A DNA stretch of 64,000 bases, taken from NCBI GenBank assembly GCA_049680365.1, contig JBAUHQ010000291.1, forward strand, positions 22 to 64,021, given 5' to 3'. The DNA is from Pirellulaceae bacterium. Lineage in GTDB: Bacteria; Planctomycetota; Planctomycetia; Pirellulales; Pirellulaceae. The notes under the pieces are model-generated. The model had not been told where the DNA came from, did not search any database, and saw only the letters and a program-made list of their open reading frames with translations. The translations under genes were made by a program, and so were the position numbers. Positions 138 to 9,506 of the stretch are shown one piece after another. Numbering within the stretch: position 1 is the stretch's first letter; each line of letters begins with the position of its first letter.

Positions 138-1442
138 ATGAATAAAACAACAAATTCAAGCGGCCCCCACGACGCCAACAAGCACCATGGACGTCGCTCG
201 CTGCTGAAGTCCGCGGGTATCAGCTTGACACTGCCCGCTTTGGAATCGATCCCTGGCGGCGCGAATGCCGCTGAGGCATCAAGCACATCGGAGCCAAAAG
301 CCAAGCGACTTGTTTGCGTCGGATCCAATTTGGGCCTGTACCGAAATGCACTTTACCCGTCGAAGTCTGGCCGAGACTACGAAACGACCCCGCTGTTGAA
401 GCCGATTGACACTCATCGTGACGACTTCACGATTTTCTCTGGACTGGATCATCGCGCCAGCAACGGACACAACAACTGGGACAATTTCCTGTGCGGCAAA
501 CGAATCGGCAGCGTGTCGATGGACCAAGTCGCAGCAGAAACCATTGGCGCACAAACTCGCTTCGAATCGCTTCAACTTTGCGCCGGCGATATTCCTAAAC
601 AACGCATGGTATTCACCAAGGACGGCGTTCCGCTGCCGATGATCAATCGACCCAGCGTGGTGTTCCACAAAATGTTTGCCAGCAGCGATGATCGTGCCCG
701 AACCGAATACTTGCTGTCCAGTGGCCGAAGCACTTTGGACAAATTGACCGGCGATGCCAACCTGCTTCGTCAACAAGTCAGCGATCGGGACAAACGCAAG
801 CTGGACGAGTATTTCAGTTCGCTTCGCGAATTGGAGCAACGCATGGGGCGGCAACTGAATCACTTGGCTCAGGATGCGCCGAAAGTTGATTACGAATTGC
901 CTCCCTACGATCCGATTGCACCGACGATGATGCTGGAGTGCGAACAGATCATGTTCGACTTGATGGCGTTGGCGTTGCAGACCGATTCGACTCGCGTTGC
1001 CACGTTGTTTATCGCGGGCTTGGGACAAGTCTTCACGCTAGACGGCCAAACAATGCGAGCCGGCTATCACGCTTTGTCGCATCACGGCAACGATCCGGAT
1101 TTGATTCGAGATTTGATTCGTGTGGAAACCGAACACATGAACTGCTTAGGGCGGTTTGTTAATCAGCTCAAGGAAAAGACCGACGCGGACGGACGACCAT
1201 TGCTGGATACCACCGTCGTGATGTTTGGAACCGGCATGGGTGATGCTAGCCGTCATTCCAATCGCGACCTGCCCACGATTGTTGCCGGCGGCGGATTTAA
1301 GCACGGCCAACACTTTGCAGCGGATCCCGAATCCGACGACTCGCCGTTGCTGGGTGATGTTTTCGTTTCGATCCTGCAGCAGTTGGGCGTAGAAGTCGAT
1401 TCGTTCTGCACCGCTAAACGAGGCATCGACGGTTGGGCATAA
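138..1442 (+). CDS. DUF1552 (HXXSHH family) protein, probably Tat-exported
   Basis: 434-aa ORF. The N-terminus HGRRSLLKSAGISLTLPA is twin-arginine-like. The motif YHALSHHG matches the HXXSHH signature. It sits directly beside its usual DUF1592-type partner. Confidence 0.8.
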   Translation: MNKTTNSSGPHDANKHHGRRSLLKSAGISLTLPALESIPGGANAAEASSTSEPKAKRLVCVGSNLGLYRNALYPSKSGRDYETTPLLKPIDTHRDDFTIFSGLDHRASNGHNNWDNFLCGKRIGSVSMDQVAAETIGAQTRFESLQLCAGDIPKQRMVFTKDGVPLPMINRPSVVFHKMFASSDDRARTEYLLSSGRSTLDKLTGDANLLRQQVSDRDKRKLDEYFSSLRELEQRMGRQLNHLAQDAPKVDYELPPYDPIAPTMMLECEQIMFDLMALALQTDSTRVATLFIAGLGQVFTLDGQTMRAGYHALSHHGNDPDLIRDLIRVETEHMNCLGRFVNQLKEKTDADGRPLLDTTVVMFGTGMGDASRHSNRDLPTIVAGGGFKHGQHFAADPESDDSPLLGDVFVSILQQLGVEVDSFCTAKRGIDGWA

Positions 1443-4054
1443 AACAAAGGTCGGTCCGAACTGCCACCACATTTGCCACCAGCCTGGCGATTGCGTTGGC
1501 ATTGCACATGTTCGCGCACACGTCGGCAACGGCAGCTCCCTTGGACGCGTCGGCAAACAAATTCTTGCGGACCTACTGTGGCGATTGTCATTGCGAGGGG
1601 GCGGACGAAGGCGGTTTTCAGATCGAAACGGACGATATCGATTGGTCGAACCACGGTTCGCTTGTTGCGTGGGAACACATTCACGCAATGGTTTCGCGAG
1701 GCATCATGCCGCCACACGATGCTGACCAACCGCCAGAAGCCGAACGAGCCGAGTTCTTGCAGTTGGCCGACAAGTACTTGGTTCAACACAGCCGGATTGG
1801 CGGAACAACGCTTCGCCGTTTGAATCGACGCGAATATTCCAAGACGATTGAGCGTCTGTTCGGTCTTTCAAATTTCAGTTTGCCGGCCAGCTTTCCTCCG
1901 GACAACGAAGCGAACGGCTTTGATAATCAAGCCGATGCTTTGGTGGTCGCTAGTTCGCACTTGGAAGCGTTGTCGGAGACGGCATCGCTAATCGCTGATC
2001 AGCTTTTTCCACCACCCCCAAAAGAGATTATCGCAAAAACGTTTCAGGTGCCTGCCCACGAAATGGTCGTCAGCTATTCTTCTGCCTGTTTGATCGATGG
2101 CCAAATGCGATTGGCCTCTTCGGGCGACAACATCGTTCGCAACGCAACTTGGCCGACCAAGTTCGAGGCCCCCGCGTCGGGCGTTTACCAGTTGACGATC
2201 AATCTTTCGTCGCACAACCCGCCCGCAACAACACCCGTTTTGACCGTGGCAACGATGCGAGCCGCCGACCGCAGCGATGTCAATCTTGTTCAAGAGATCA
2301 CAGTCGACAGCCAGGATGTGACCTCAAGCCATTTGAAAATCCGATTGAACAAAGGCGACACGGTCGCACTGCGTTACTTAAATGGCCCGTTGGTCTACGA
2401 GGACGTGCCGAAATTCGAGTCTTTCCTGACGGAGCTATTCACGAACAACCCAAAACTTGCGGCGGCGTGGGACCACGTTGGCAATCCGCCGCGAGGCGGT
2501 AGTGGCTGGCAGCGTGTCAAAGAAGCGATGGGAAACCAGGACCTGGACGTCGCAAAGTTCAAGGACAACGAAACAGCGGTTTCCGAACTGGTCAAACGAG
2601 TCGCGAAGAACAAGGTCAACTCGGGAGAAACGTTGGTCTACAAATTCTTTGAGGAAGGACCGGCGATCGCAATTCACCGGATGACGTTGCATGGTCCGAT
2701 CAAACGCATTCGTGATCGCGACCAGATCCGCAGCGACAACTTGCGAGAGAGCTTTGTGGGCAAAGATTTCGACGACTCCGATCTGAATTCGTTGCAACAG
2801 TTGATGCAGCGGTTTTTGTCCGCGGCGTTTCGCCGCCCTGCAACGGAGAACGAGATCGCCGGCTATGCCAGCTTGATTCAACAAACGGCCACCGAAACCG
2901 GCTCCATTGACCAAGGACTCCATCTTGCAATACGCACGGCTCTGATTTCGCCGGCCTTCCTGTATCGTGGGTTCCACGACGGAGTGCTCAGCGATCATGA
3001 CTTGGCAACTCGCTTGTCCTACTTCCTGACATCCGCACCGCCGTCCGAGAGTCTGCAGAAAGCCGTCCACGCTGGCAAACTATCGCGACCCGCCGTCTTG
3101 CAAAAAGAGACCTTGCGATTGCTGGGACGTGATTTTTCAAAGGAGTTTTCGACTCAGTGGTTGGGCACCGATGAAGTCGACAACTTGATGCCCGACTTGC
3201 GTCTCATTAAGCGGTTTAGTCCGGAACATCGACAAGTGTTTCGCGACGAAGTGACGGAAACATTTCATCATATACTGACCGAGAATTTACCGGTCACTGA
3301 ATTCATCAATCCGAATTTCGTGTTCACTAATCAAACGGTCGGCTGGGAAATTTACGCATTGGAACAGCTGAAGCCTTCAAAGAAAAATCGTGCTACCAAG
3401 TCAAATCGCAAGAAGATTGCAAAATTCACATTGCCCGCCGACAGTCACCGTGGTGGGCTGCTGACAATGCCAGCCGTGATGATGTCGACCGCCAACGGAG
3501 TGGATACCCAGCCAGTTCTACGTGGCGTTTGGGTTTTGGAAAACATCTTTGGCACACCGCCACCCGAACCGCCCAATGCTGTGCCAGCACTGACCCCCGA
3601 TACCAGTTCGGCAACAACAGTAAAACAACGACTCGCTGCACATATGTCAGACGAATCTTGTGCGCAGTGCCATCGCGAAATCGATCCAATCGGGTTCGCA
3701 CTGGAAAGTTTTGATCCTATCGGGCGCTGGCGTGATCACTATCCGCTTTATCGCGATCAAGACGGCGAACCAGTCATCGAGAAAGGGAATCGAGTCGACA
3801 CGACTGGCGAGCTACCAGACGGAACGGAAATCAAAGACGTCGTCGATCTGAAGCAATGGCTGGCCAATCATCCCGAACTGTTCGCCAGATGCTTATCGGA
3901 AAAACTGCTCACCTATGCAGTCGGACGAAGGCTAAACTATCGTGAAAAGAAGCTGATCGCAGAAATCGTCACCGAACAACGGGAAAGCAACGACCTGCGC
4001 TTTCGCGATCTCCTAGTCGCTTTGGTCGGCAGCGAAATTTTTCGCACGAAGTGA
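1433..4054 (+). CDS. Planctomycete multidomain DUF1587/DUF1595/DUF1592/DUF1588/DUF1585-type protein with two CxxCH motifs
   Basis: 873-aa ORF with a signal-like N-terminus. CxxCH motifs are CGDCH near the N-terminus and CAQCH followed by REIDPIGFALESFDPIGRWR near the C-terminus. The TTG start overlaps the upstream stop by 10 nt, so the start is uncertain. Confidence 0.8.
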   Translation: MGIKQRSVRTATTFATSLAIALALHMFAHTSATAAPLDASANKFLRTYCGDCHCEGADEGGFQIETDDIDWSNHGSLVAWEHIHAMVSRGIMPPHDADQPPEAERAEFLQLADKYLVQHSRIGGTTLRRLNRREYSKTIERLFGLSNFSLPASFPPDNEANGFDNQADALVVASSHLEALSETASLIADQLFPPPPKEIIAKTFQVPAHEMVVSYSSACLIDGQMRLASSGDNIVRNATWPTKFEAPASGVYQLTINLSSHNPPATTPVLTVATMRAADRSDVNLVQEITVDSQDVTSSHLKIRLNKGDTVALRYLNGPLVYEDVPKFESFLTELFTNNPKLAAAWDHVGNPPRGGSGWQRVKEAMGNQDLDVAKFKDNETAVSELVKRVAKNKVNSGETLVYKFFEEGPAIAIHRMTLHGPIKRIRDRDQIRSDNLRESFVGKDFDDSDLNSLQQLMQRFLSAAFRRPATENEIAGYASLIQQTATETGSIDQGLHLAIRTALISPAFLYRGFHDGVLSDHDLATRLSYFLTSAPPSESLQKAVHAGKLSRPAVLQKETLRLLGRDFSKEFSTQWLGTDEVDNLMPDLRLIKRFSPEHRQVFRDEVTETFHHILTENLPVTEFINPNFVFTNQTVGWEIYALEQLKPSKKNRATKSNRKKIAKFTLPADSHRGGLLTMPAVMMSTANGVDTQPVLRGVWVLENIFGTPPPEPPNAVPALTPDTSSATTVKQRLAAHMSDESCAQCHREIDPIGFALESFDPIGRWRDHYPLYRDQDGEPVIEKGNRVDTTGELPDGTEIKDVVDLKQWLANHPELFARCLSEKLLTYAVGRRLNYREKKLIAEIVTEQRESNDLRFRDLLVALVGSEIFRTK

Positions 4055-4092
4055 TGTCAGTTGTCGATTTCTAATTTGCACGAGAACGAAGA

Positions 4093-4710
4093 ATGATCCG
4101 ACTTTCCATGTTTATCGGCTGCTTGCTTGCTCACAGTTTCGTCTTGGCGGGCGAGTTCAATCCTGACATCAACATCGGTGACACGGCACCCGCATGGAGC
4201 GATTTGCCGGGGACGGATGGCAAGCATCATTCATCCAATGACTTTCATGATTTCAAAGCAGTCGTCGTTGCGTTCACCTGCAATAGTTGCCCCTACGCGG
4301 TGGATGCCGAACAACGTCTGATCGAACTGCATGCGTTATGCAAAGCAAACAAGGCAGCGTTAGTCGCGATCAACGTCAACACCATCGCTGCGGACGATTT
4401 GCCCGCGATGACGGCTCGTGCCAAGGAAAAATCTTATCCTTTCCCTTACCTGTTCGACAAAACTCAAGCGATCGCCAAAGCCTTCGGAGCACGCTACACG
4501 CCCGAATTTTTTGTCCTCGGCGAAGACCGCAAGATCGTCTACATGGGATCATTGGACGATAGTCCCGACGGTAAAAAGGTAACGAAGCAATTCGTCCGGG
4601 ACGCAATCCTGGCCGCCGCCGACACGAAGGCTCCAGCAGTAACCGAGACCGTGCCCATTGGATGCCGCATTCGATTCGAACGTGAACGGCGAACAAGAAA
4701 GAGCAAGTAG
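4093..4710 (+). CDS. Exported thioredoxin-fold (TlpA/AhpC-TSA-like) protein
   Basis: 205 aa with a signal peptide. FTCNSCPY contains a CxxC motif. YTPEFFVLG resembles the redoxin fold. Confidence 0.75.
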   Translation: MIRLSMFIGCLLAHSFVLAGEFNPDINIGDTAPAWSDLPGTDGKHHSSNDFHDFKAVVVAFTCNSCPYAVDAEQRLIELHALCKANKAALVAINVNTIAADDLPAMTARAKEKSYPFPYLFDKTQAIAKAFGARYTPEFFVLGEDRKIVYMGSLDDSPDGKKVTKQFVRDAILAAADTKAPAVTETVPIGCRIRFERERRTRKSK

Positions 4711-4750
4711 GAACCGGCACTTTCGCGGTACAATGTCCCCGTGAAAAGCT

Positions 4751-5512
4751 TTACTTCAGCGAATCGTAGACCTTGATGTCGTCCACCAATGCAGAACTCC
4801 AACCGCTGAACTCGCTGCTGCCAAGTAGCAACTGAGCACCTTGTTCGCGGCGCTGTTGCATTTCGGCTTGGCTTGCACACGGTCCGCCAAATGCCTTGCC
4901 GTGTTTCTTGCAGGCAGCCGCGACGGTTTCCCATGCTTCGTCCAAAGTCATTTCGTTCGTCTGACGCAGTCGCAAGCCCAAGTCGCCAGGGCCAATGAAG
5001 ATCAAGTCGACGCCTTCGGTCGCTGCAATGGCGTCGCAGTTGCGAACCGCTTCGGGGGTTTCAATTTGAGCGACTAAAAATGTTTCGCGATTTACCCAAG
5101 CTGCGTATTCGTCTGGATTGTGAACGTGAAAATCAGCGTCCAAACCAGCGTTATCGATGCCGCGATTTCCAAGCGGTGGGAACTTGGTGTACTGCACCAA
5201 CATCTCTGCCATTTCGGGTGTCGACAGATGCGGAATCATCAGCCCCGCAGCACCGTCTTCCAAGAAACGACACAAGCCCGTTTTCTCCAGCGTCGGCGGG
5301 CGAATCAAAATATCGATGTCAAACAAATGACCAAACGCCAACAGTGCATCAATCTCTCGCGATTGCATTCCGCGGTGCTCCAGATCGACCCAAAGGCAGT
5401 CGTATCCGGCTCGTGCGGCGTGCGCAACATAGGCCGGGATGTAATGACCAAGCACGGCTAAACGAATAGGTTCGCCGCTGCGTACACGCGATAGGGTTTT
5501 GCTGATTCTCAC
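4751..5512 (-). CDS. HpcH/HpaI-family aldolase
   Basis: 253 aa with a GTG start. ARAGYDCLWVDLEHRG and LIFIGPGDL are typical of HpcH/HpaI aldolase / citrate-lyase beta-like enzymes. Confidence 0.75.
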   Translation of the reverse strand: MRISKTLSRVRSGEPIRLAVLGHYIPAYVAHAARAGYDCLWVDLEHRGMQSREIDALLAFGHLFDIDILIRPPTLEKTGLCRFLEDGAAGLMIPHLSTPEMAEMLVQYTKFPPLGNRGIDNAGLDADFHVHNPDEYAAWVNRETFLVAQIETPEAVRNCDAIAATEGVDLIFIGPGDLGLRLRQTNEMTLDEAWETVAAACKKHGKAFGGPCASQAEMQQRREQGAQLLLGSSEFSGWSSALVDDIKVYDSLK

Positions 5513-5628
5513 GGGTTATCCTGTAGGCCTTCGTTGGCAGTGGAACGTATGGAGCCGAGAATCTTAGCGAGTCGGCGAAAGCCTGTCCGCACCACTGCCA
5601 ATTTGCCCTGACAGAGACCGCCGCCGAC

Positions 5629-6906
5629 TTGACGACGGTCGTGTTTTGCCACATGGTGCATTGGCAGGACCTCACTCTATCCGTTAAAGCCGCACCTACA
5701 ATTTCAACTCCAACCCCGCCAACCGATCACGCCTCCAATCAGCGCGTCCGTTGCTACGATTGCTATCGCCCGCTCAGCATGTGTTTTTGCGATCGGATTC
5801 CTTCGGTCAACAATCGCACTGAAATTCTGATTTTGCAGCACATGCGTGAGCGATTCCATCCGTTCAACACCGCTCGCATTTTGCGAAAAGCTCTGGCCAA
5901 CGCGACTTTGATGGTCGATCACAACCTTGCCCTGGCGGATCAAATCGGGACTTTGGCGTTGCCGCCCAGTGCTGGCGTCTTGTACCCCGGCCCCGGCGGG
6001 AGACTACTGACCGATCTGCCTCGCGACGAACATCCTGAACAACTGATTGTCATTGATGGCACTTGGCATCATGCGAAAACGTTGTTGCGCGACATCCCCC
6101 TTTTGAACGAACTACCACGTTTCCGAATTCAGCCTGCTCAGCCAGGACGATACCGAATCCGGCGTGAACCGAACGAGACAGCACTTTCAACCTTAGAAGC
6201 AACCGTCGCGGCGCTGCTGGCCTTGGAACCCGAAACCGATGGCCTGCATGAATTGACATCTGCGTTTGATTCGATGGTGCAAACGCAATTGGATCATCCG
6301 AAAGCTCGTTATGGTTGGCGACACAATCGACGTCGTAGTGAAAACGCGATGGGCATCCCGCGAGCGATCTTGGATGACTTGCCCAATGTCGTGGTTGCCT
6401 ACGGAGAATCGGAGCCTGGTAAAGCCGGTTGCAAAAGGTCGCCTCGCGGTCACGACAAACGGCAAAGTGTCTATTGGGTCGCGCAGCGACTTGGCACCGG
6501 CGAATCGTTTCGAGCAGCAATTGAACCTCGCGTGGCGTTGCCCGAAGATTTTTTGCAGCACGTCGGCCTGCCGATGGAAACATGGCAGTCGGCATTGTCG
6601 ATGGACGATTTCGTCCGAACGTGGAAAGAATTCCTTCAGCCGACCGATACGCTGGTGACCTATCACGCCAGCACATCCAAGTTGTTGAAAAACGTCGACG
6701 CGTTGCCACCGCGAAGCGTGTACTTAAAATCGGTCAAGTTCGATCCATCCGGGCAACATAAAACGCTTGATTCGTTCCTGAAAAGTAACGAACTGAAAAC
6801 CATGCCACCACAGCATCCCGGGCGCGCGGGCGAGCGACTTGCTAACGCCATCGCATTGGTAAACTACTTATATCAGACAGGTGGTGCAAAACGCGATGCT
6901 CTATAA
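5629..6906 (+). CDS. DTW-domain protein (TapT/TuaA-like tRNA acp transferase family) with an approximately 190-aa C-terminal extension
   Basis: Cys cluster CYDCYRPLSMCFCD, then LILQH, then VIDGTWHHAKT (the DxTW motif). The ORF continues about 190 aa past a normal DTW protein. The start may be the ATG at 5653 rather than the TTG at 5629. Confidence 0.7.
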   Translation: MTTVVFCHMVHWQDLTLSVKAAPTISTPTPPTDHASNQRVRCYDCYRPLSMCFCDRIPSVNNRTEILILQHMRERFHPFNTARILRKALANATLMVDHNLALADQIGTLALPPSAGVLYPGPGGRLLTDLPRDEHPEQLIVIDGTWHHAKTLLRDIPLLNELPRFRIQPAQPGRYRIRREPNETALSTLEATVAALLALEPETDGLHELTSAFDSMVQTQLDHPKARYGWRHNRRRSENAMGIPRAILDDLPNVVVAYGESEPGKAGCKRSPRGHDKRQSVYWVAQRLGTGESFRAAIEPRVALPEDFLQHVGLPMETWQSALSMDDFVRTWKEFLQPTDTLVTYHASTSKLLKNVDALPPRSVYLKSVKFDPSGQHKTLDSFLKSNELKTMPPQHPGRAGERLANAIALVNYLYQTGGAKRDAL

Positions 6907-8477: not shown

Positions 8478-9506
8478 ATGAAACGCCCTTTAGTTGCCGC
8501 TAGTCTGCTCACTGCCTTGGCGTTGCTGCCAATCGCTGGACATGCCCAAGGACCTCGCCCCGACAACCTGGGTGCATCCAAACTTGACCTCGGCGAGCCA
8601 GGAATTGCTTGGTACACAACTTGGGAGTCCGCCCAGGCAGAAGCCAAACGTAGTGGCCGACCCATCATGTTTGTCGCGGCGGCTACACAGTGCAACGGAG
8701 TTTCGGGCGTTTTCTGACCCGGCTACACCGCCACGCAGAACGGTCTGTTCGCATCCAAAGATTTTATTGACTCCACCCGCGATTTTGTTTGTGTCCGTTT
8801 GGATAGCTACGAAAGCGTCGATCACCAAAAATACGTCCGGACATTTCTGGACGGAAAATTCGAAAACAGCGTCTTTTGCGTGCTCTCGCCCAATAGCCAG
8901 GATTGGTTGACTCGCGCCCACCGTGGGCCGCAGCAAGTATTCGGTCGACAAAGTGCGACGGACCAGATGGCACGTTTCGCTGTGCAGTACCCGGCCAAAG
9001 CCACCTTGGACGAAGCGATTGTCCAGGACTTCCACACATTCCGCCAAGCGTTGAATGTGGCGTCGGCCGATCAGCGTGTGTTGGTCGTCATCAATACAAA
9101 CGGCGACCAGAAAACACACTTGCGTGATTCGCTAAAATCGGTCGTAAACGACAGCCGTATCGTCGGACGTTTTCATTTCGACTTTGAAACATCGGACGAT
9201 TGGAAGCAAAACGTTTCGGGCACAACTGACCAGCCAGGAATCGTCGTGATCAATCCAGGCGAATTTGGTTTGACCGGCAAAGTGATGACCCAACTTCCCT
9301 TGGATGCGAAGCCGGAGCAGATCACTGACGAATTACTGAAGGCCAACGACGTTTACGCCAAGACAACGAAGAAGAAGGTCTACTCAGAGCATGTTGCAAA
9401 AGGTCGCAAAGCAGGCGTGTATTTCGAGGGAGCGGTGCCATACGGTGAAGACCGCGACGGCGATGGTGAGATTGATCACCGCGGCGGCAGTCAGCGACGA
9501 CAGTAG
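8478..9506 (+). CDS. Exported thioredoxin-fold protein whose frame is interrupted by one in-frame TGA at 8715-8717 (candidate selenoprotein, otherwise a pseudogene)
   Basis: ORFs 8478-8717 and 8799-9506 share one frame, and 8718-8798 is open in that frame. The joined product reads signal peptide ... AKRSGRPIMFVAAATQCNGVSGVF-[TGA]-PGYTATQNGLFASKDFIDSTRDFVCVRLD, which resembles a Thioredoxin_7-type domain. Confidence 0.5.
8735..8752 (+). other. SECIS-like hairpin candidate downstream of the in-frame TGA
   Basis: Pairs are g8735-c8752, c8736-g8751, (a8737 bulged), g8738-c8750, a8739-t8749, a8740-t8748 and c8741-g8747. The apical loop is GGUCU (8742-8746), 27 nt after the UGA. Confidence 0.35.

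What the first reader, a model, noticed from the sequence alone, without database searches (positions are those of the whole stretch)
8478..9506. In-frame UGA at the predicted redox position of an exported thioredoxin-fold protein, with a SECIS-like hairpin
Seen: two ORFs (8478-8717 and 8799-9506) share one frame and are separated only by the TGA at 8715-8717, with 8718-8798 open.

The joined sequence ...RPIMFVAAATQCNGVSGVF-U-PGYTATQNGLFASKDFIDSTRDFVCVRLD reads like a Thioredoxin_7-type domain. Counting back from the FVxVxxD strand, the TGA falls where the first Cys of WCxxC normally sits (F-U-P-G-Y versus W-C-x-x-C). A Cys lies 8 residues upstream.

Starting 20 nt after the UGA there is a 6-bp hairpin with a 5'-side bulged A and a GGUCU apical loop. 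From memory, the E. coli fdhF SECIS has a bulged U and a GGUC loop starting at +22. Here the loop starts at +28, which is within the range reported for bacterial SECIS elements.

Inference: this is either a Sec-containing oxidoreductase or a recent nonsense pseudogene. The stem is short and I cannot compute its energy.
Basis: partly seen in the sequence, partly recalled or inferred. Interest (0 to 1): 0.75.

Follow-up and report, generated by a model that had tools for sequence, protein, structure and literature searches.

The report
Uncatalogued exported thioredoxin-fold selenoprotein family
The "stop" codon at 8715-8717 is almost certainly read as selenocysteine: this is one 342-residue exported thioredoxin-like protein from a large marine bacterial selenoprotein family that gene callers split in two and that I did not find in current selenoprotein catalogues.

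Summary
TGA occupies the same column in all 166 relatives whose DNA I read: 82 orthologs from Planctomycetota and Verrucomicrobiota, 80 members of a paralogous subfamily at about 30% identity, and 4 more divergent members. Rare distant homologs carry real Cys codons (TGC/TGT) there. A Cys 8 residues upstream is kept with it, giving a C-x7-U/C motif. The 18 nt at +19 to +36 after the UGA are frozen even at synonymous sites. They form a small hairpin whose loop (N-G-U-N-U, G29/U30 invariant) always lies at +28 to +32. The stem differs between subfamilies through compensatory changes, and it is lost in the Cys forms. On its own the window's hairpin is weak (-4.8 kcal/mol). One related contig has a tRNA-Sec 1.5 kb upstream. 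UGA is otherwise the commonest stop codon in the window. AlphaFold models (pLDDT about 90) show two tandem thioredoxin-like domains with Sec at the N-cap of helix α1. No NCBIfam or Pfam model reaches its cut-off, RefSeq calls the fragments "hypothetical", and a 2026 list of 119 families has no match. Function, Sec machinery in this genome and actual Se incorporation remain untested.

The parts
8478..9506 (+). Complete selenoprotein gene: 342 codons including Sec80, stop TAG 9504-9506. It is currently split by gene callers into a 79-aa fragment (GenBank MGB7345794.1, WBD20_16375) and a C-terminal fragment.
   Evidence: frame; homologs truncated at exactly this point on both sides; tblastn matches run through the TGA in 80 genomes; accession.
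8478..8546 (+). Predicted Sec-type signal peptide (MKRPLVAASLLTALALLPIAGHA | QG). The cleavage site was judged by eye.
   Evidence: Read from the sequence; no signal-peptide predictor was available. The equivalent N-terminus of P0001 is disordered in the model (pLDDT < 50 for residues 1-17).
8607..8984 (+). Thioredoxin-like domain 1, the putative catalytic domain (about residues 44-169). It spans the UGA: β1 lies before it and helix α1 starts directly after it. Boundaries are approximate.
   Evidence: Pfam Thioredoxin_7 sub-threshold in all members; AF2 secondary structure; Foldseek matches to 1sen (ERp19) and 3ira (DUF255-type domain).
8691..8693 (+). Cys72 (TGC), 8 residues upstream of Sec. 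It is the proposed resolving partner in the C-x7-U motif.
   Evidence: Conserved in 82/82 orthologs, in subfamily B and in the Cys forms. It is lost together with the U/C residue in P0262.
8715..8717 (+). UGA read as selenocysteine (Sec80).
   Evidence: TGA at this column in 166/166 relatives; TGC/TGT in the distant homologs L162-L164.
8733..8752 (+). Bacterial SECIS element. The block at +19 to +36 (8733-8750) is invariant at the nucleotide level. Core helix 8738-8741 / 8747-8750, loop GGUCU 8742-8746 (G29 U30 = 8743-8744), bulged A 8737, lower pairs 8735-8736 / 8751-8752.
   Evidence: synonymous-codon entropy 0-0.4 here against 0.6-1.0 at almost all other codons; 99.6% of cells paired against 19-51% when slid; 3/4 pairs change on both sides; RNAalifold; lost in Cys forms; further compensatory variants.
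9039..9365 (+). Thioredoxin-like domain 2 (βαβαββα), without Cys/Sec motif and presumably non-catalytic. Boundaries were transferred from the P0001 model and are approximate.
   Evidence: elements H179-188 through H270-287 of P0001; best whole-chain matches are tandem Trx-domain proteins: PDI, ERp44, calsequestrin, OsPDIL2-3 a-b. No Pfam family.
9450..9476 (+). Conserved D-R-D-G-D-G-E-I-D loop (residues 325-333). It resembles an EF-hand Ca2+-binding loop and is followed by a short basic tail.
   Evidence: Invariant columns Y322 G323 E324 D325 R326 D329 G330 D333. The EF-hand resemblance is by eye only; no Pfam hit here.

Best explanation
8478-9506 is a single gene for an exported selenoprotein. 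SelB carrying Sec-tRNA(Sec) would recognise a small hairpin whose apical loop begins 24 nt after the UGA (loop N-G-U-N-U, with G at +29 and U at +30), and the ribosome would insert selenocysteine at codon 80 instead of terminating. This step is inferred from comparative evidence, not observed. The N-terminal signal peptide would send the protein across the inner membrane (inferred). The mature protein consists of two tandem thioredoxin-like domains. In the first, Sec80 sits at the N-terminal cap of helix α1, the position of the nucleophilic Cys in thioredoxin-fold oxidoreductases. Cys72 lies in an 8-residue hairpin loop inserted between β1 and α1. I propose that Sec80 is the attacking nucleophile and Cys72 the resolving residue, so that they form a selenenylsulfide. 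On this view the enzyme is a periplasmic thiol/selenol-disulfide oxidoreductase (reductase, isomerase or peroxidase-like), with the second, Cys-less domain acting as a substrate-binding module as in the PDI a-b arrangement. The redox chemistry and the substrate are inference only. The gene belongs to a large family with at least two Sec-containing subfamilies in marine Planctomycetota and Verrucomicrobiota. It is almost always Sec rather than Cys and is missing from current selenoprotein catalogues.
For: (1) TGA is at the same column in 82/82 orthologs at 45-72% identity across two phyla, in 80/80 members of subfamily B at about 30% identity and in 4/4 further divergent members. (2) There is a Cys/Sec pair: the full-length distant homologs P0241, P0254, P0278, P0290 and P0324 have Cys there, with real TGC/TGC/TGT codons in the three whose DNA I read. 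P0262 lost this residue and Cys-8 together. (3) An RNA-level constraint is present: nt +19 to +36 are invariant, and normalised synonymous-codon entropy is 0-0.4 at codons +6 to +11 against 0.6-1.0 at almost all other codons. The same holds in subfamily B with a different sequence, including the rare AGG codon. (4) The structure is kept while the sequence changes: core pairs 24-36, 25-35, 26-34 and 27-33 are paired in 99.6% of 484 cells, against 19-51% in slid controls; three pairs change on both sides; 0/500 shuffles reach the score. RNAalifold finds the same helix. Pair 24-36 occurs as GC, CG, UA and AU, the last through two synonymous changes. (5) Three of the four published bSECIS criteria are clearly met: 5-nt loop on a stem of at least 4 bp, the N1-G-U-N-N2 pattern, and 24-nt spacing (criteria from PMC13188914). 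(6) The hairpin and the invariant downstream residues are lost in the Cys forms. (7) tRNA-Sec lies 1.5 kb upstream of the gene in L054 (ARAGORN; Rfam RF01852, 70.4 bits). selA/B/C/D are reported in other Planctomycetes (PMC4807772). (8) UGA is not reassigned: 17 of 41 long ORFs in the window end in TGA. (9) The thioredoxin fold spans the UGA, and U/C immediately precedes helix α1 in two models (pLDDT 90.5 and 89.8). Foldseek finds PDI-like tandem Trx proteins. (10) The downstream piece has no conserved start: gene callers pick different starts in different orthologs.
Against: Sec incorporation has not been observed directly. selA, selB, selD and selC could not be sought in the window's own genome. 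Only 64 kb is available; it contains no tRNA-Sec, and I found no selD in any held sequence. The window's hairpin alone is thermodynamically weak (-4.8 kcal/mol; z = 0.20 for the region), and only 27% of subfamily-A hairpins reach the -7.5 kcal/mol criterion on their own. Most double-sided changes come from a few evolutionary events: the A/B split, L110/L111, L165 and L167. The controls do not correct for relatedness. The N-terminal domain was modelled from an alignment only 7 sequences deep, with W in place of U in one model, and no coordinates were available to measure the Cys72-Sec80 distance. A weak profile alignment to AGR3 puts Cys72, not Sec80, on the classical active-site Cys. Gene neighbourhoods are not conserved, so the proposed function has no genomic-context support.
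Confidence: 0.88

Rival explanations
1. Recent nonsense mutation (pseudogene) or sequencing error: the TGA terminates translation and the downstream part is dead.
For: In isolation the locus looks like a split gene. The hairpin is not better than shuffled sequence. Public annotations call two separate hypothetical proteins.
Against: TGA is at the identical column in 166/166 relatives from two phyla and many independent assemblies. The sequence after the TGA is under strong purifying selection at the protein level.
Confidence: 0.01
2. UGA is read through as a standard amino acid, either by near-cognate tRNA (Trp, Cys or Arg) or because UGA is a sense codon in this lineage. The conserved hairpin would then stimulate read-through and would not bind SelB.
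For: JGI translated one ortholog with W at this position (P0001). No Sec machinery was shown for this genome. Stimulatory downstream hairpins are known for read-through in other systems (my general knowledge).
Against: TGA is the commonest ordinary stop in the window (17/41 long ORFs), so there is no reassignment. Every sense-codon homolog that keeps the motif has Cys at this column, not Trp, Arg or Gly; only P0262, which lost both residues, has Ser. The hairpin fits the bSECIS pattern N1-G-U-N-N2 at 24 nt and matches the bulge-to-GU spacing of E. coli fdhF. A tRNA-Sec lies next to the gene in L054.
Confidence: 0.05
3. Two real, separate products: a 79-residue secreted peptide ending at the UGA, and a C-terminal protein started independently downstream.
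For: Gene callers produce exactly this. Subfamily B has a conserved ATG 5 codons after the UGA (PGKQN-M-DRSFL).
Against: In subfamily A there is no conserved start, and callers choose different positions. The 27 codons between the UGA and the first candidate start in the window (TTG 8799) are among the most conserved in the protein. The Cys forms are single polypeptides. The predicted thioredoxin fold needs β1 from before the UGA and α1 from after it. A C-terminal piece alone would also lack a signal peptide.
Confidence: 0.03
4. It is a genuine selenoprotein but not a redox enzyme. Sec80, with Cys72, would bind a metal or chalcogen (Cu, Hg, Se), and the protein would be a periplasmic chaperone or sensor.
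For: The C-x7-U spacing is unlike catalytic CxxC/CxxU motifs. One Cys form (L164) sits next to YHYH and HupE/UreJ genes, which I know as metal-related. There is a conserved EF-hand-like DRDGDGxID loop, and P0278 has an N-terminal EF-hand hit. Several catalogued selenoproteins are metal-binding.
Against: The metal-gene neighbourhood is a single case. Neighbourhoods are otherwise not conserved. Sec at the N-cap of α1 in a thioredoxin fold is the classical redox position.
Confidence: 0.2

Closest known systems
Trx7/PDZ domain-containing (seleno)protein, NCBIfam NF041199 (the 'putative secreted serine protease MucD' family of the GOS study)
   Same: An exported bacterial selenoprotein found in marine metagenomes, with a Thioredoxin_7-type domain carrying the Sec. 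It is the only NCBIfam selenoprotein model with any similarity (residues 44-119).
   Different: The score is 16.8 bits against a cut-off of 300. No PDZ domain is detected. Its motif is CxxU, whereas here it is C-x7-U. Here the C-terminal part is a second thioredoxin-like domain.
Thioredoxin_7 / DsbH-DUF255 / AGR-ERp19 (TXNDC12) type thioredoxin-fold domains (PF13899, PF03190; PDB 1sen, 3ira, 3ph9)
   Same: There is the same weak sequence signal from the 'W-Y..W..A..A....KP' helix through β1 to the FVxVxxD strand in all members. They are the best single-domain structural matches (1sen TMt 0.58, 3ira TMt 0.54). AGR3 is the only sequence-level PDB hit.
   Different: All Pfam scores are below the gathering threshold. 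An 8-residue loop is inserted between β1 and α1. The motif is C-x7-U instead of CxxC/CxxS, with Tyr or Lys where the second Cys would be.
Protein disulfide isomerase a-b domain pairs (hPDI 4el1, ERp44 5gu6, OsPDIL2-3 9wzl, QSOX1)
   Same: A catalytic thioredoxin-like domain is followed by a Cys-less thioredoxin-like domain. These are the top Foldseek hits (probability about 1.0).
   Different: TM-scores are only 0.2-0.3, with about 10% identity and a different domain orientation. There is no CGHC motif. This protein is bacterial and periplasmic rather than ER-resident. The resemblance is in fold only and gives no evidence of common descent.
E. coli fdhF SECIS (minimal 17-nt stem-loop, bulged U17, loop G23 U24)
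   Same: It is a small hairpin in the coding sequence just after the UGA. The loop contains G-U (GGUCU here, GGUC in fdhF). The distance from the 5' bulge to the loop G is 6 nt in the planctomycete form (A23 to G29, against U17 to G23). Sources.
   Different: The element sits two codons (6 nt) further from the UGA. The bulged base is A rather than U, and it is paired (A23-U37) in Verrucomicrobia and subfamily B. The upper stem is only 4 bp in subfamily A and is weaker.

Membership tests
Bacterial selenoprotein gene (Sec-UGA plus bSECIS) | In-frame UGA conserved at the same column in orthologs from different organisms | tested here: met
   166/166 DNA sequences.
Bacterial selenoprotein gene (Sec-UGA plus bSECIS) | Cys/Sec pair: homologs with Cys aligned to the UGA | tested here: met
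   P0241, P0254, P0278, P0290 and P0324 have Cys. The codons are TGC, TGC and TGT in L162-L164.
Bacterial selenoprotein gene (Sec-UGA plus bSECIS) | bSECIS geometry: 3-9 nt apical loop, 4-16 bp upper stem, G in the first two loop positions (N1-G-[G/U]-N-N2), 16-37 nt from the UGA (PMC13188914 Fig. 2A) | tested here: met
   5-nt loop GGUCU/AGUUU with G29 U30 invariant, N1-N2 = G·U or A-U, 4-6 bp stem, 24-nt spacing.
Bacterial selenoprotein gene (Sec-UGA plus bSECIS) | bSECIS stability: MFE of -7.5 kcal/mol or lower | tested here: inconclusive
   The window hairpin alone is -4.8 kcal/mol, and -9.0 for UGA to +48 including a second small hairpin. For subfamily A, 27% of hairpins pass alone and 73% pass over nt 1-48. 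Subfamily B passes in 100%.
Bacterial selenoprotein gene (Sec-UGA plus bSECIS) | selA, selB, selC and selD present in the same genome | tested here: inconclusive
   tRNA-Sec lies beside the gene in L054. None is present in the 64-kb window. The literature reports sel genes in other Planctomycetes.
Bacterial selenoprotein gene (Sec-UGA plus bSECIS) | Selenium demonstrated in the protein | not testable with these tools
   This needs 75Se labelling or mass spectrometry.
Thioredoxin_7 (PF13899) | Score at or above the Pfam gathering threshold (27 bits) | tested here: not met
   17.6 bits for the window protein and 15-20 bits for five relatives.
Thioredoxin_7 (PF13899) | Thioredoxin fold with the active-site residue at the N-terminus of α1 after β1 | tested here: met
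   AF2 models with pLDDT 90.5 and 89.8: U/C immediately precedes helix α1. Foldseek matches 1sen and 3ira.
Trx7/PDZ (seleno)protein NF041199 | NCBIfam cut-off of 300 bits, a PDZ domain and a CxxU motif | tested here: not met
   16.8 bits. No PDZ hit. The motif is C-x7-U.
GOS_B (NF041374) and GOS_C (NF045500) marine hypothetical selenoproteins | Match to the family model; GOS_C has a UxxC motif | tested here: not met
   Neither model appears even at E up to 1. Accessions and motifs are from PMC13188914. GOS_A has no model and could not be tested; it was reported as 2 Sec against 155 Cys sequences, unlike this mostly-Sec family.
PDI-like a-b tandem thioredoxin proteins | Two consecutive thioredoxin-fold domains, with a CGHC-type motif in the catalytic one | tested here: inconclusive
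   The tandem fold is supported (Foldseek probability about 1.0 but TM 0.2-0.3). There is no CxxC motif and no sequence-level relationship.

The most novel reading that the evidence does not exclude
This is a previously uncatalogued and abundant selenoprotein superfamily of aerobic marine Planctomycetota and Verrucomicrobiota: 696 clusters at 50% identity, with at least two Sec-containing subfamilies that can sit side by side next to tRNA-Sec. It uses a long-range C-x7-U selenenylsulfide motif on a thioredoxin fold instead of CxxU/UxxC, and Sec is almost never replaced by Cys. If so, it defines a new catalytic motif, probably a new periplasmic redox activity, and a lineage-typical SECIS (loop N-G-U-N-U fixed at +28 to +32) usable to mine further selenoproteins in these phyla.
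Probability: 0.55. Interest if true: 0.68.

Novelty: new member of a known kind. Interest (0 to 1): 0.6.

Why it matters
It corrects a systematic annotation error. Hundreds of public records, including RefSeq WP_145418383.1 in the complete genome of Stieleria marina, list this gene as two unrelated hypothetical proteins. It adds a large family to the roughly 119 known prokaryotic selenoprotein families. The family lives in aerobic marine heterotrophs, which have received less attention for selenium use than anaerobes. Its active-site spacing (C-x7-U) differs from the usual CxxU/UxxC. The sharply defined SECIS, with G-U at +29/+30 and stems that differ between subfamilies, gives a concrete search pattern for more selenoproteins in Planctomycetota and Verrucomicrobiota. 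It also gives a natural test case for how far SelB tolerates spacing and stem weakness. Two cultured carriers make experiments possible.

Tried and rejected
(1) Folding the hairpin alone says nothing either way (z = 0.20); only comparative data were informative. (2) Rfam has no match at the UGA region even at E up to 10. (4) Alignments A2 and A5, which mixed N- and C-terminal fragments, were misaligned by MAFFT and were discarded. A6 and A7, without N-terminal fragments and with seven full-length bridging sequences, were checked and used. (5) Gene-neighbourhood analysis of 81 loci found no conserved partner, so I dropped an operon-based functional inference. (6) A scan of the window for other split-by-TGA genes found no convincing second selenoprotein. 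(8) A sequence-profile search of the PDB gave only AGR3 at E = 0.91. (9) Literature searches for selenocysteine together with Pirellulaceae, Roseibacillus, Rubripirellula, Stieleria or Fuerstiella found nothing. An unnamed 'hypothetical' Sec candidate in Table S9 of PMC4807772 could not be matched to this family or excluded. (10) I considered and rejected a global UGA reassignment, a pseudogene, and two independent genes.
Full report
OBSERVATION. The window has two same-frame ORFs, 8478-8717 and 8799-9506, separated only by TGA 8715-8717, and 8718-8798 is open. The joined product has 342 residues and reads ...AAATQC72NGVSGVF-U80-PGYTATQNGLFASKDFIDSTRDFVCVRLD.... By energy alone it is unremarkable. 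The MFE of 8715-8775 is -9.0 kcal/mol with z = 0.20 against dinucleotide shuffles, and the hairpin alone gives -4.8 kcal/mol. The window holds no tRNA-Sec and no Rfam hit other than a tRNA-His.

THE UGA IS CONSERVED. A protein search with the joined sequence returned 549 relatives. The best 120 were almost all 210-260 aa and covered only the C-terminal 58-70% of the query. A search with the N-terminal half returned 120 fragments of about 79 aa that all end in ...GVF. So gene callers cut this gene at the same place everywhere. The single 'full-length' hit, P0001, shows W at the position, but its DNA has TGA. A scan of one genome per species gave 80 loci: Stieleria marina, Rubripirellula, Rhodopirellula, Fuerstiella and other Planctomycetota, and Roseibacillus persicicus, Akkermansiaceae, Limisphaerales and other Verrucomicrobiota, at 45-72% identity. 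All 80, plus L001 and the window, carry TGA at the same column within C-x-G-[VI]-[SP]-G-V-F-U-[PQ]-G-Y. This excludes a nonsense pseudogene or a sequencing error.

A SECOND SUBFAMILY AND CYS HOMOLOGS. Locus L054 holds a paralog at about 30% identity, 1 kb downstream of its ortholog, also with TGA (AAAQCGGVPGMW-U-PGKQNMDRSFL). A metagenome scan for this subfamily B gave 80 loci, all with TGA. An exhaustive phmmer search of 1.84 billion cluster representatives found 696 relatives. Most start just after the U column. Six span it. Five of these have Cys exactly there and keep the upstream Cys: P0241 and P0254 FCPGY, P0278 and P0290 MWCPGK, P0324 LWCRGY. The sixth, P0262, has lost both residues (R...S). 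The DNA of three Cys forms has genuine TGC, TGC and TGT codons. Four further divergent truncated members (27-37% identity) also have TGA. This Cys/Sec pairing is the standard signature of a true selenoprotein (strategy described in PMC13188914).

THE HAIRPIN IS A CONSERVED RNA ELEMENT. In the 82 orthologs, nt +19 to +36 (ACGCAGAAC-R-GU-Y-UGUUC) are essentially invariant, including third codon positions. Third positions at +6, +9, +15 and +18 are free. Normalised synonymous-codon entropy is 0.6-1.0 at almost all other conserved codons but 0.05, 0, 0, 0.38 and 0.10 at codons +6, +7, +8, +10 and +11. Subfamily B is equally frozen over a different sequence (AUG GAC AGG AGU UUC CUG UC), including the rare Arg codon AGG. 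In an ungapped alignment of 121 distinct 48-mers from both subfamilies, pairs 24-36, 25-35, 26-34 and 27-33 are standard pairs in 99.6% of cells, against 19-51% when the 3' partner is slid by 1-3 nt. Three of the four pairs change on both sides (GC/CG/UA, AU/GC, CG/GC), and 0 of 500 shuffles reach the observed covariation score. RNAalifold independently predicts the same helix plus a closing 28-32 pair. The loop stays at +28 to +32, and G29 and U30 are invariant.

Further independent variants exist. L110 and L111 have U24-A36. L165 has A24-U36, made by two synonymous changes (CAG to CAA and TTC to TTT). L167 has C24-G36 with a 6-bp stem. L166 and L168 tolerate U·U mismatches but extend the lower stem. 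In the three Cys forms only 2-3 of the 4 core positions can pair, the loop has no G-U, and the otherwise invariant residues (TQNGLF or NMDRSFL) vary. The element therefore accompanies UGA and not the protein sequence. One caveat applies: the double changes trace back to a handful of events, and the shuffle control does not correct for relatedness.

COMPARISON WITH THE SECIS MODEL. The published bacterial model asks for four things: a 3-9 nt loop on a 4-16 bp stem; a G in the first two loop positions, typically N1-G-[G/U]-N-N2 with N1 and N2 paired; 16-37 nt between the UGA and the loop; and MFE of -7.5 kcal/mol or lower (PMC13188914). The first three are met (loop G/A-G-U-C/U-U, 24-nt spacing). 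The energy criterion is met by all subfamily-B hairpins (mean -11.8) but by only 27% of subfamily-A hairpins alone; 73% pass over nt 1-48, and the window gives -9.0 over that range. In E. coli fdhF the minimal element lies 11 nt after the UGA, with bulged U17 and loop G23/U24 as SelB contacts (PMC8659212). Here the corresponding positions are A23, G29 and U30, so the bulge-to-G spacing is the same and the element is shifted by two codons. The bulge is not universal, because A23 pairs with U37 in Verrucomicrobia and in subfamily B.

SEC MACHINERY AND CODE. L054 has a tRNA-Sec (anticodon UCA) 1.5 kb upstream of the gene (ARAGORN; Rfam RF01852, 70.4 bits against a gathering score of 47). Full selA/B/C/D sets are reported for a Rhodopirellula and other Planctomycetes (PMC4807772). 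The window's own genome could not be examined beyond 64 kb. TGA ends 17 of the 41 long ORFs in the window, so UGA is an ordinary stop here and is recoded only locally.

THE PROTEIN. Pfam gives only a sub-threshold Thioredoxin_7 hit (17.6 bits, cut-off 27), and the same weak hit appears in every relative tested. NCBIfam gives only 16.8 bits to the Trx7/PDZ selenoprotein model, whose cut-off is 300. The C-terminal 230 residues match no family. AlphaFold2 on a checked alignment (A6) gives a confident model of ortholog P0001 (pLDDT 90.5, pTM 0.86). It has a thioredoxin-like domain (α0, β1 54-59, a short hairpin loop with Cys63, helix α1 from residue 72 directly after U71, then β2, α2, β3...) followed by a second βαβαββα unit at about residues 179-287. 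A model of the natural Cys form P0241 agrees: β1 66-70, Cys75 in a 74-75/78-79 hairpin, and the helix starting at Pro84 after Cys83 (pLDDT 89.8).

A weak ungapped profile alignment to AGR3 (E = 0.91) instead places AGR3's CxxS Cys on the upstream Cys. I cannot resolve this without coordinates. Foldseek finds tandem-thioredoxin proteins (PDI, ERp44, calsequestrin, OsPDIL2-3 a-b, QSOX1; probability about 1, TM 0.2-0.3). For domain 1 alone it finds ERp19 (1sen) and a DUF255-type domain (3ira). An N-terminal signal peptide (judged by eye) and a conserved C-terminal DRDGDGxID loop complete the picture. Neighbouring genes are not conserved. In the window they are a DTW-domain protein, a TAT-signal Gfo/Idh/MocA oxidoreductase, a dual-specificity phosphatase and a BamB-like propeller.

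MECHANISM. The following points are shown: conserved UGA, Cys/Sec pairing, a SECIS-like element under selection, a thioredoxin-like fold spanning the UGA, and tRNA-Sec in a carrier genome. The following are inferred: SelB-dependent Sec insertion at codon 80; export; Sec80 as nucleophile with Cys72 as resolving residue forming a selenenylsulfide; and a PDI-like division of labour between the two domains. A metal- or chalcogen-binding role is a live alternative. It rests on one Cys form next to YHYH and HupE/UreJ genes and on the EF-hand-like features.

NOVELTY. A 2026 inventory of 119 prokaryotic selenoprotein families, with motifs and model accessions, contains nothing with C-x7-U or this architecture (PMC13188914). 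The GOS families do not fit. RefSeq and GenBank annotate the fragments as hypothetical proteins (WP_145418383.1, MGB7345794.1). No paper in the library links selenocysteine to these genera. One unnamed 'hypothetical' candidate in a 2016 supplementary table cannot be excluded as an earlier sighting. I therefore rate this as a new family of a well-known kind, a bacterial selenoprotein with a coding-region SECIS. It is not a new mechanism.

VERDICT. The pseudogene, reassignment and two-gene alternatives are excluded or very unlikely. My confidence is about 0.88 that UGA 8715-8717 encodes Sec, and about 0.5-0.6 for the specific selenenylsulfide oxidoreductase model. Interest is moderate to high for selenium biology and genome annotation (0.6).

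Noticed in passing
L054:1064-6068 (also L082-L085): A small 'selenoprotein islet'. A tRNA-Sec (1379-1472) overlaps an integrase-like ORF (1064-2533, minus strand; judged by eye from an H-x-L-R-H-T motif). It is followed by the subfamily-A gene (3001-4086), a TAT-signal ORF that looks like an intradiol dioxygenase (4260-4961, by eye) and the subfamily-B gene (5013-6068).
   Followed up: partly
L108:2765-2812: This subfamily-B copy has an additional in-frame TAG four codons after the UGA (PGK*NMDRSFL). It is probably a pseudogene or a sequencing error in that metagenome contig.
   Followed up: no
L001:370-372 / P0001: JGI's protein for this 1277-bp contig shows W at the TGA, so the contig was evidently translated under a code with UGA = Trp. 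It is the only 'full-length' database entry among the close orthologs, and it is wrong at the key residue.
   Followed up: yes
P0127 (687-bp ENA contig): An N-terminal fragment continues after ...GVSGVF into unrelated sequence (HFHHEAVQRMP...) instead of stopping. This is probably a frameshift or a chimeric short contig.
   Followed up: no
window:10222-11907 (-): A PQQ_2/BamB-like β-propeller protein carries an insert of about 70 residues rich in Gly, Arg and Pro (GGGRGEGGRGDGGRGDGG...GGGGGGF) near its C-terminal third.
   Followed up: no
window:5629-6903 (+): In this DTW-domain protein (a family I know as tRNA aminocarboxypropyltransferase), the DTW domain covers only residues 40-221 of 425. 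The C-terminal ~200 residues have no Pfam match.
   Followed up: no
window:39030-41054 (+): Two long same-frame ORFs (390 and 283 codons) are separated by a single TGA, and the second begins with Met one codon after the stop (...EEAKNQ*VMKYFPF...). They are most likely two adjacent genes and not a Sec site.
   Followed up: no
L164:1036-5020; window:9450-9476: Possible metal or calcium link. The Cys-form homolog P0278 has an N-terminal EF-hand (Pfam E = 3e-5) and is followed by YHYH (PF14240) and HupE/UreJ (PF13795) genes. Subfamily A has an invariant C-terminal DRDGDGxID loop resembling an EF-hand loop.
   Followed up: partly
L165:84-131: One divergent Sec member has C-x6-U (ATC-KVPGAF-U-RGY) instead of C-x7-U, so the spacing of the proposed redox pair is not absolutely fixed.
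   Followed up: no
window:8490-9119 (-): A 209-codon antisense ORF overlaps the gene, and similar antisense ORFs recur in 21 related loci. This is a by-product of sense-strand conservation and not evidence of a gene.
   Followed up: partly
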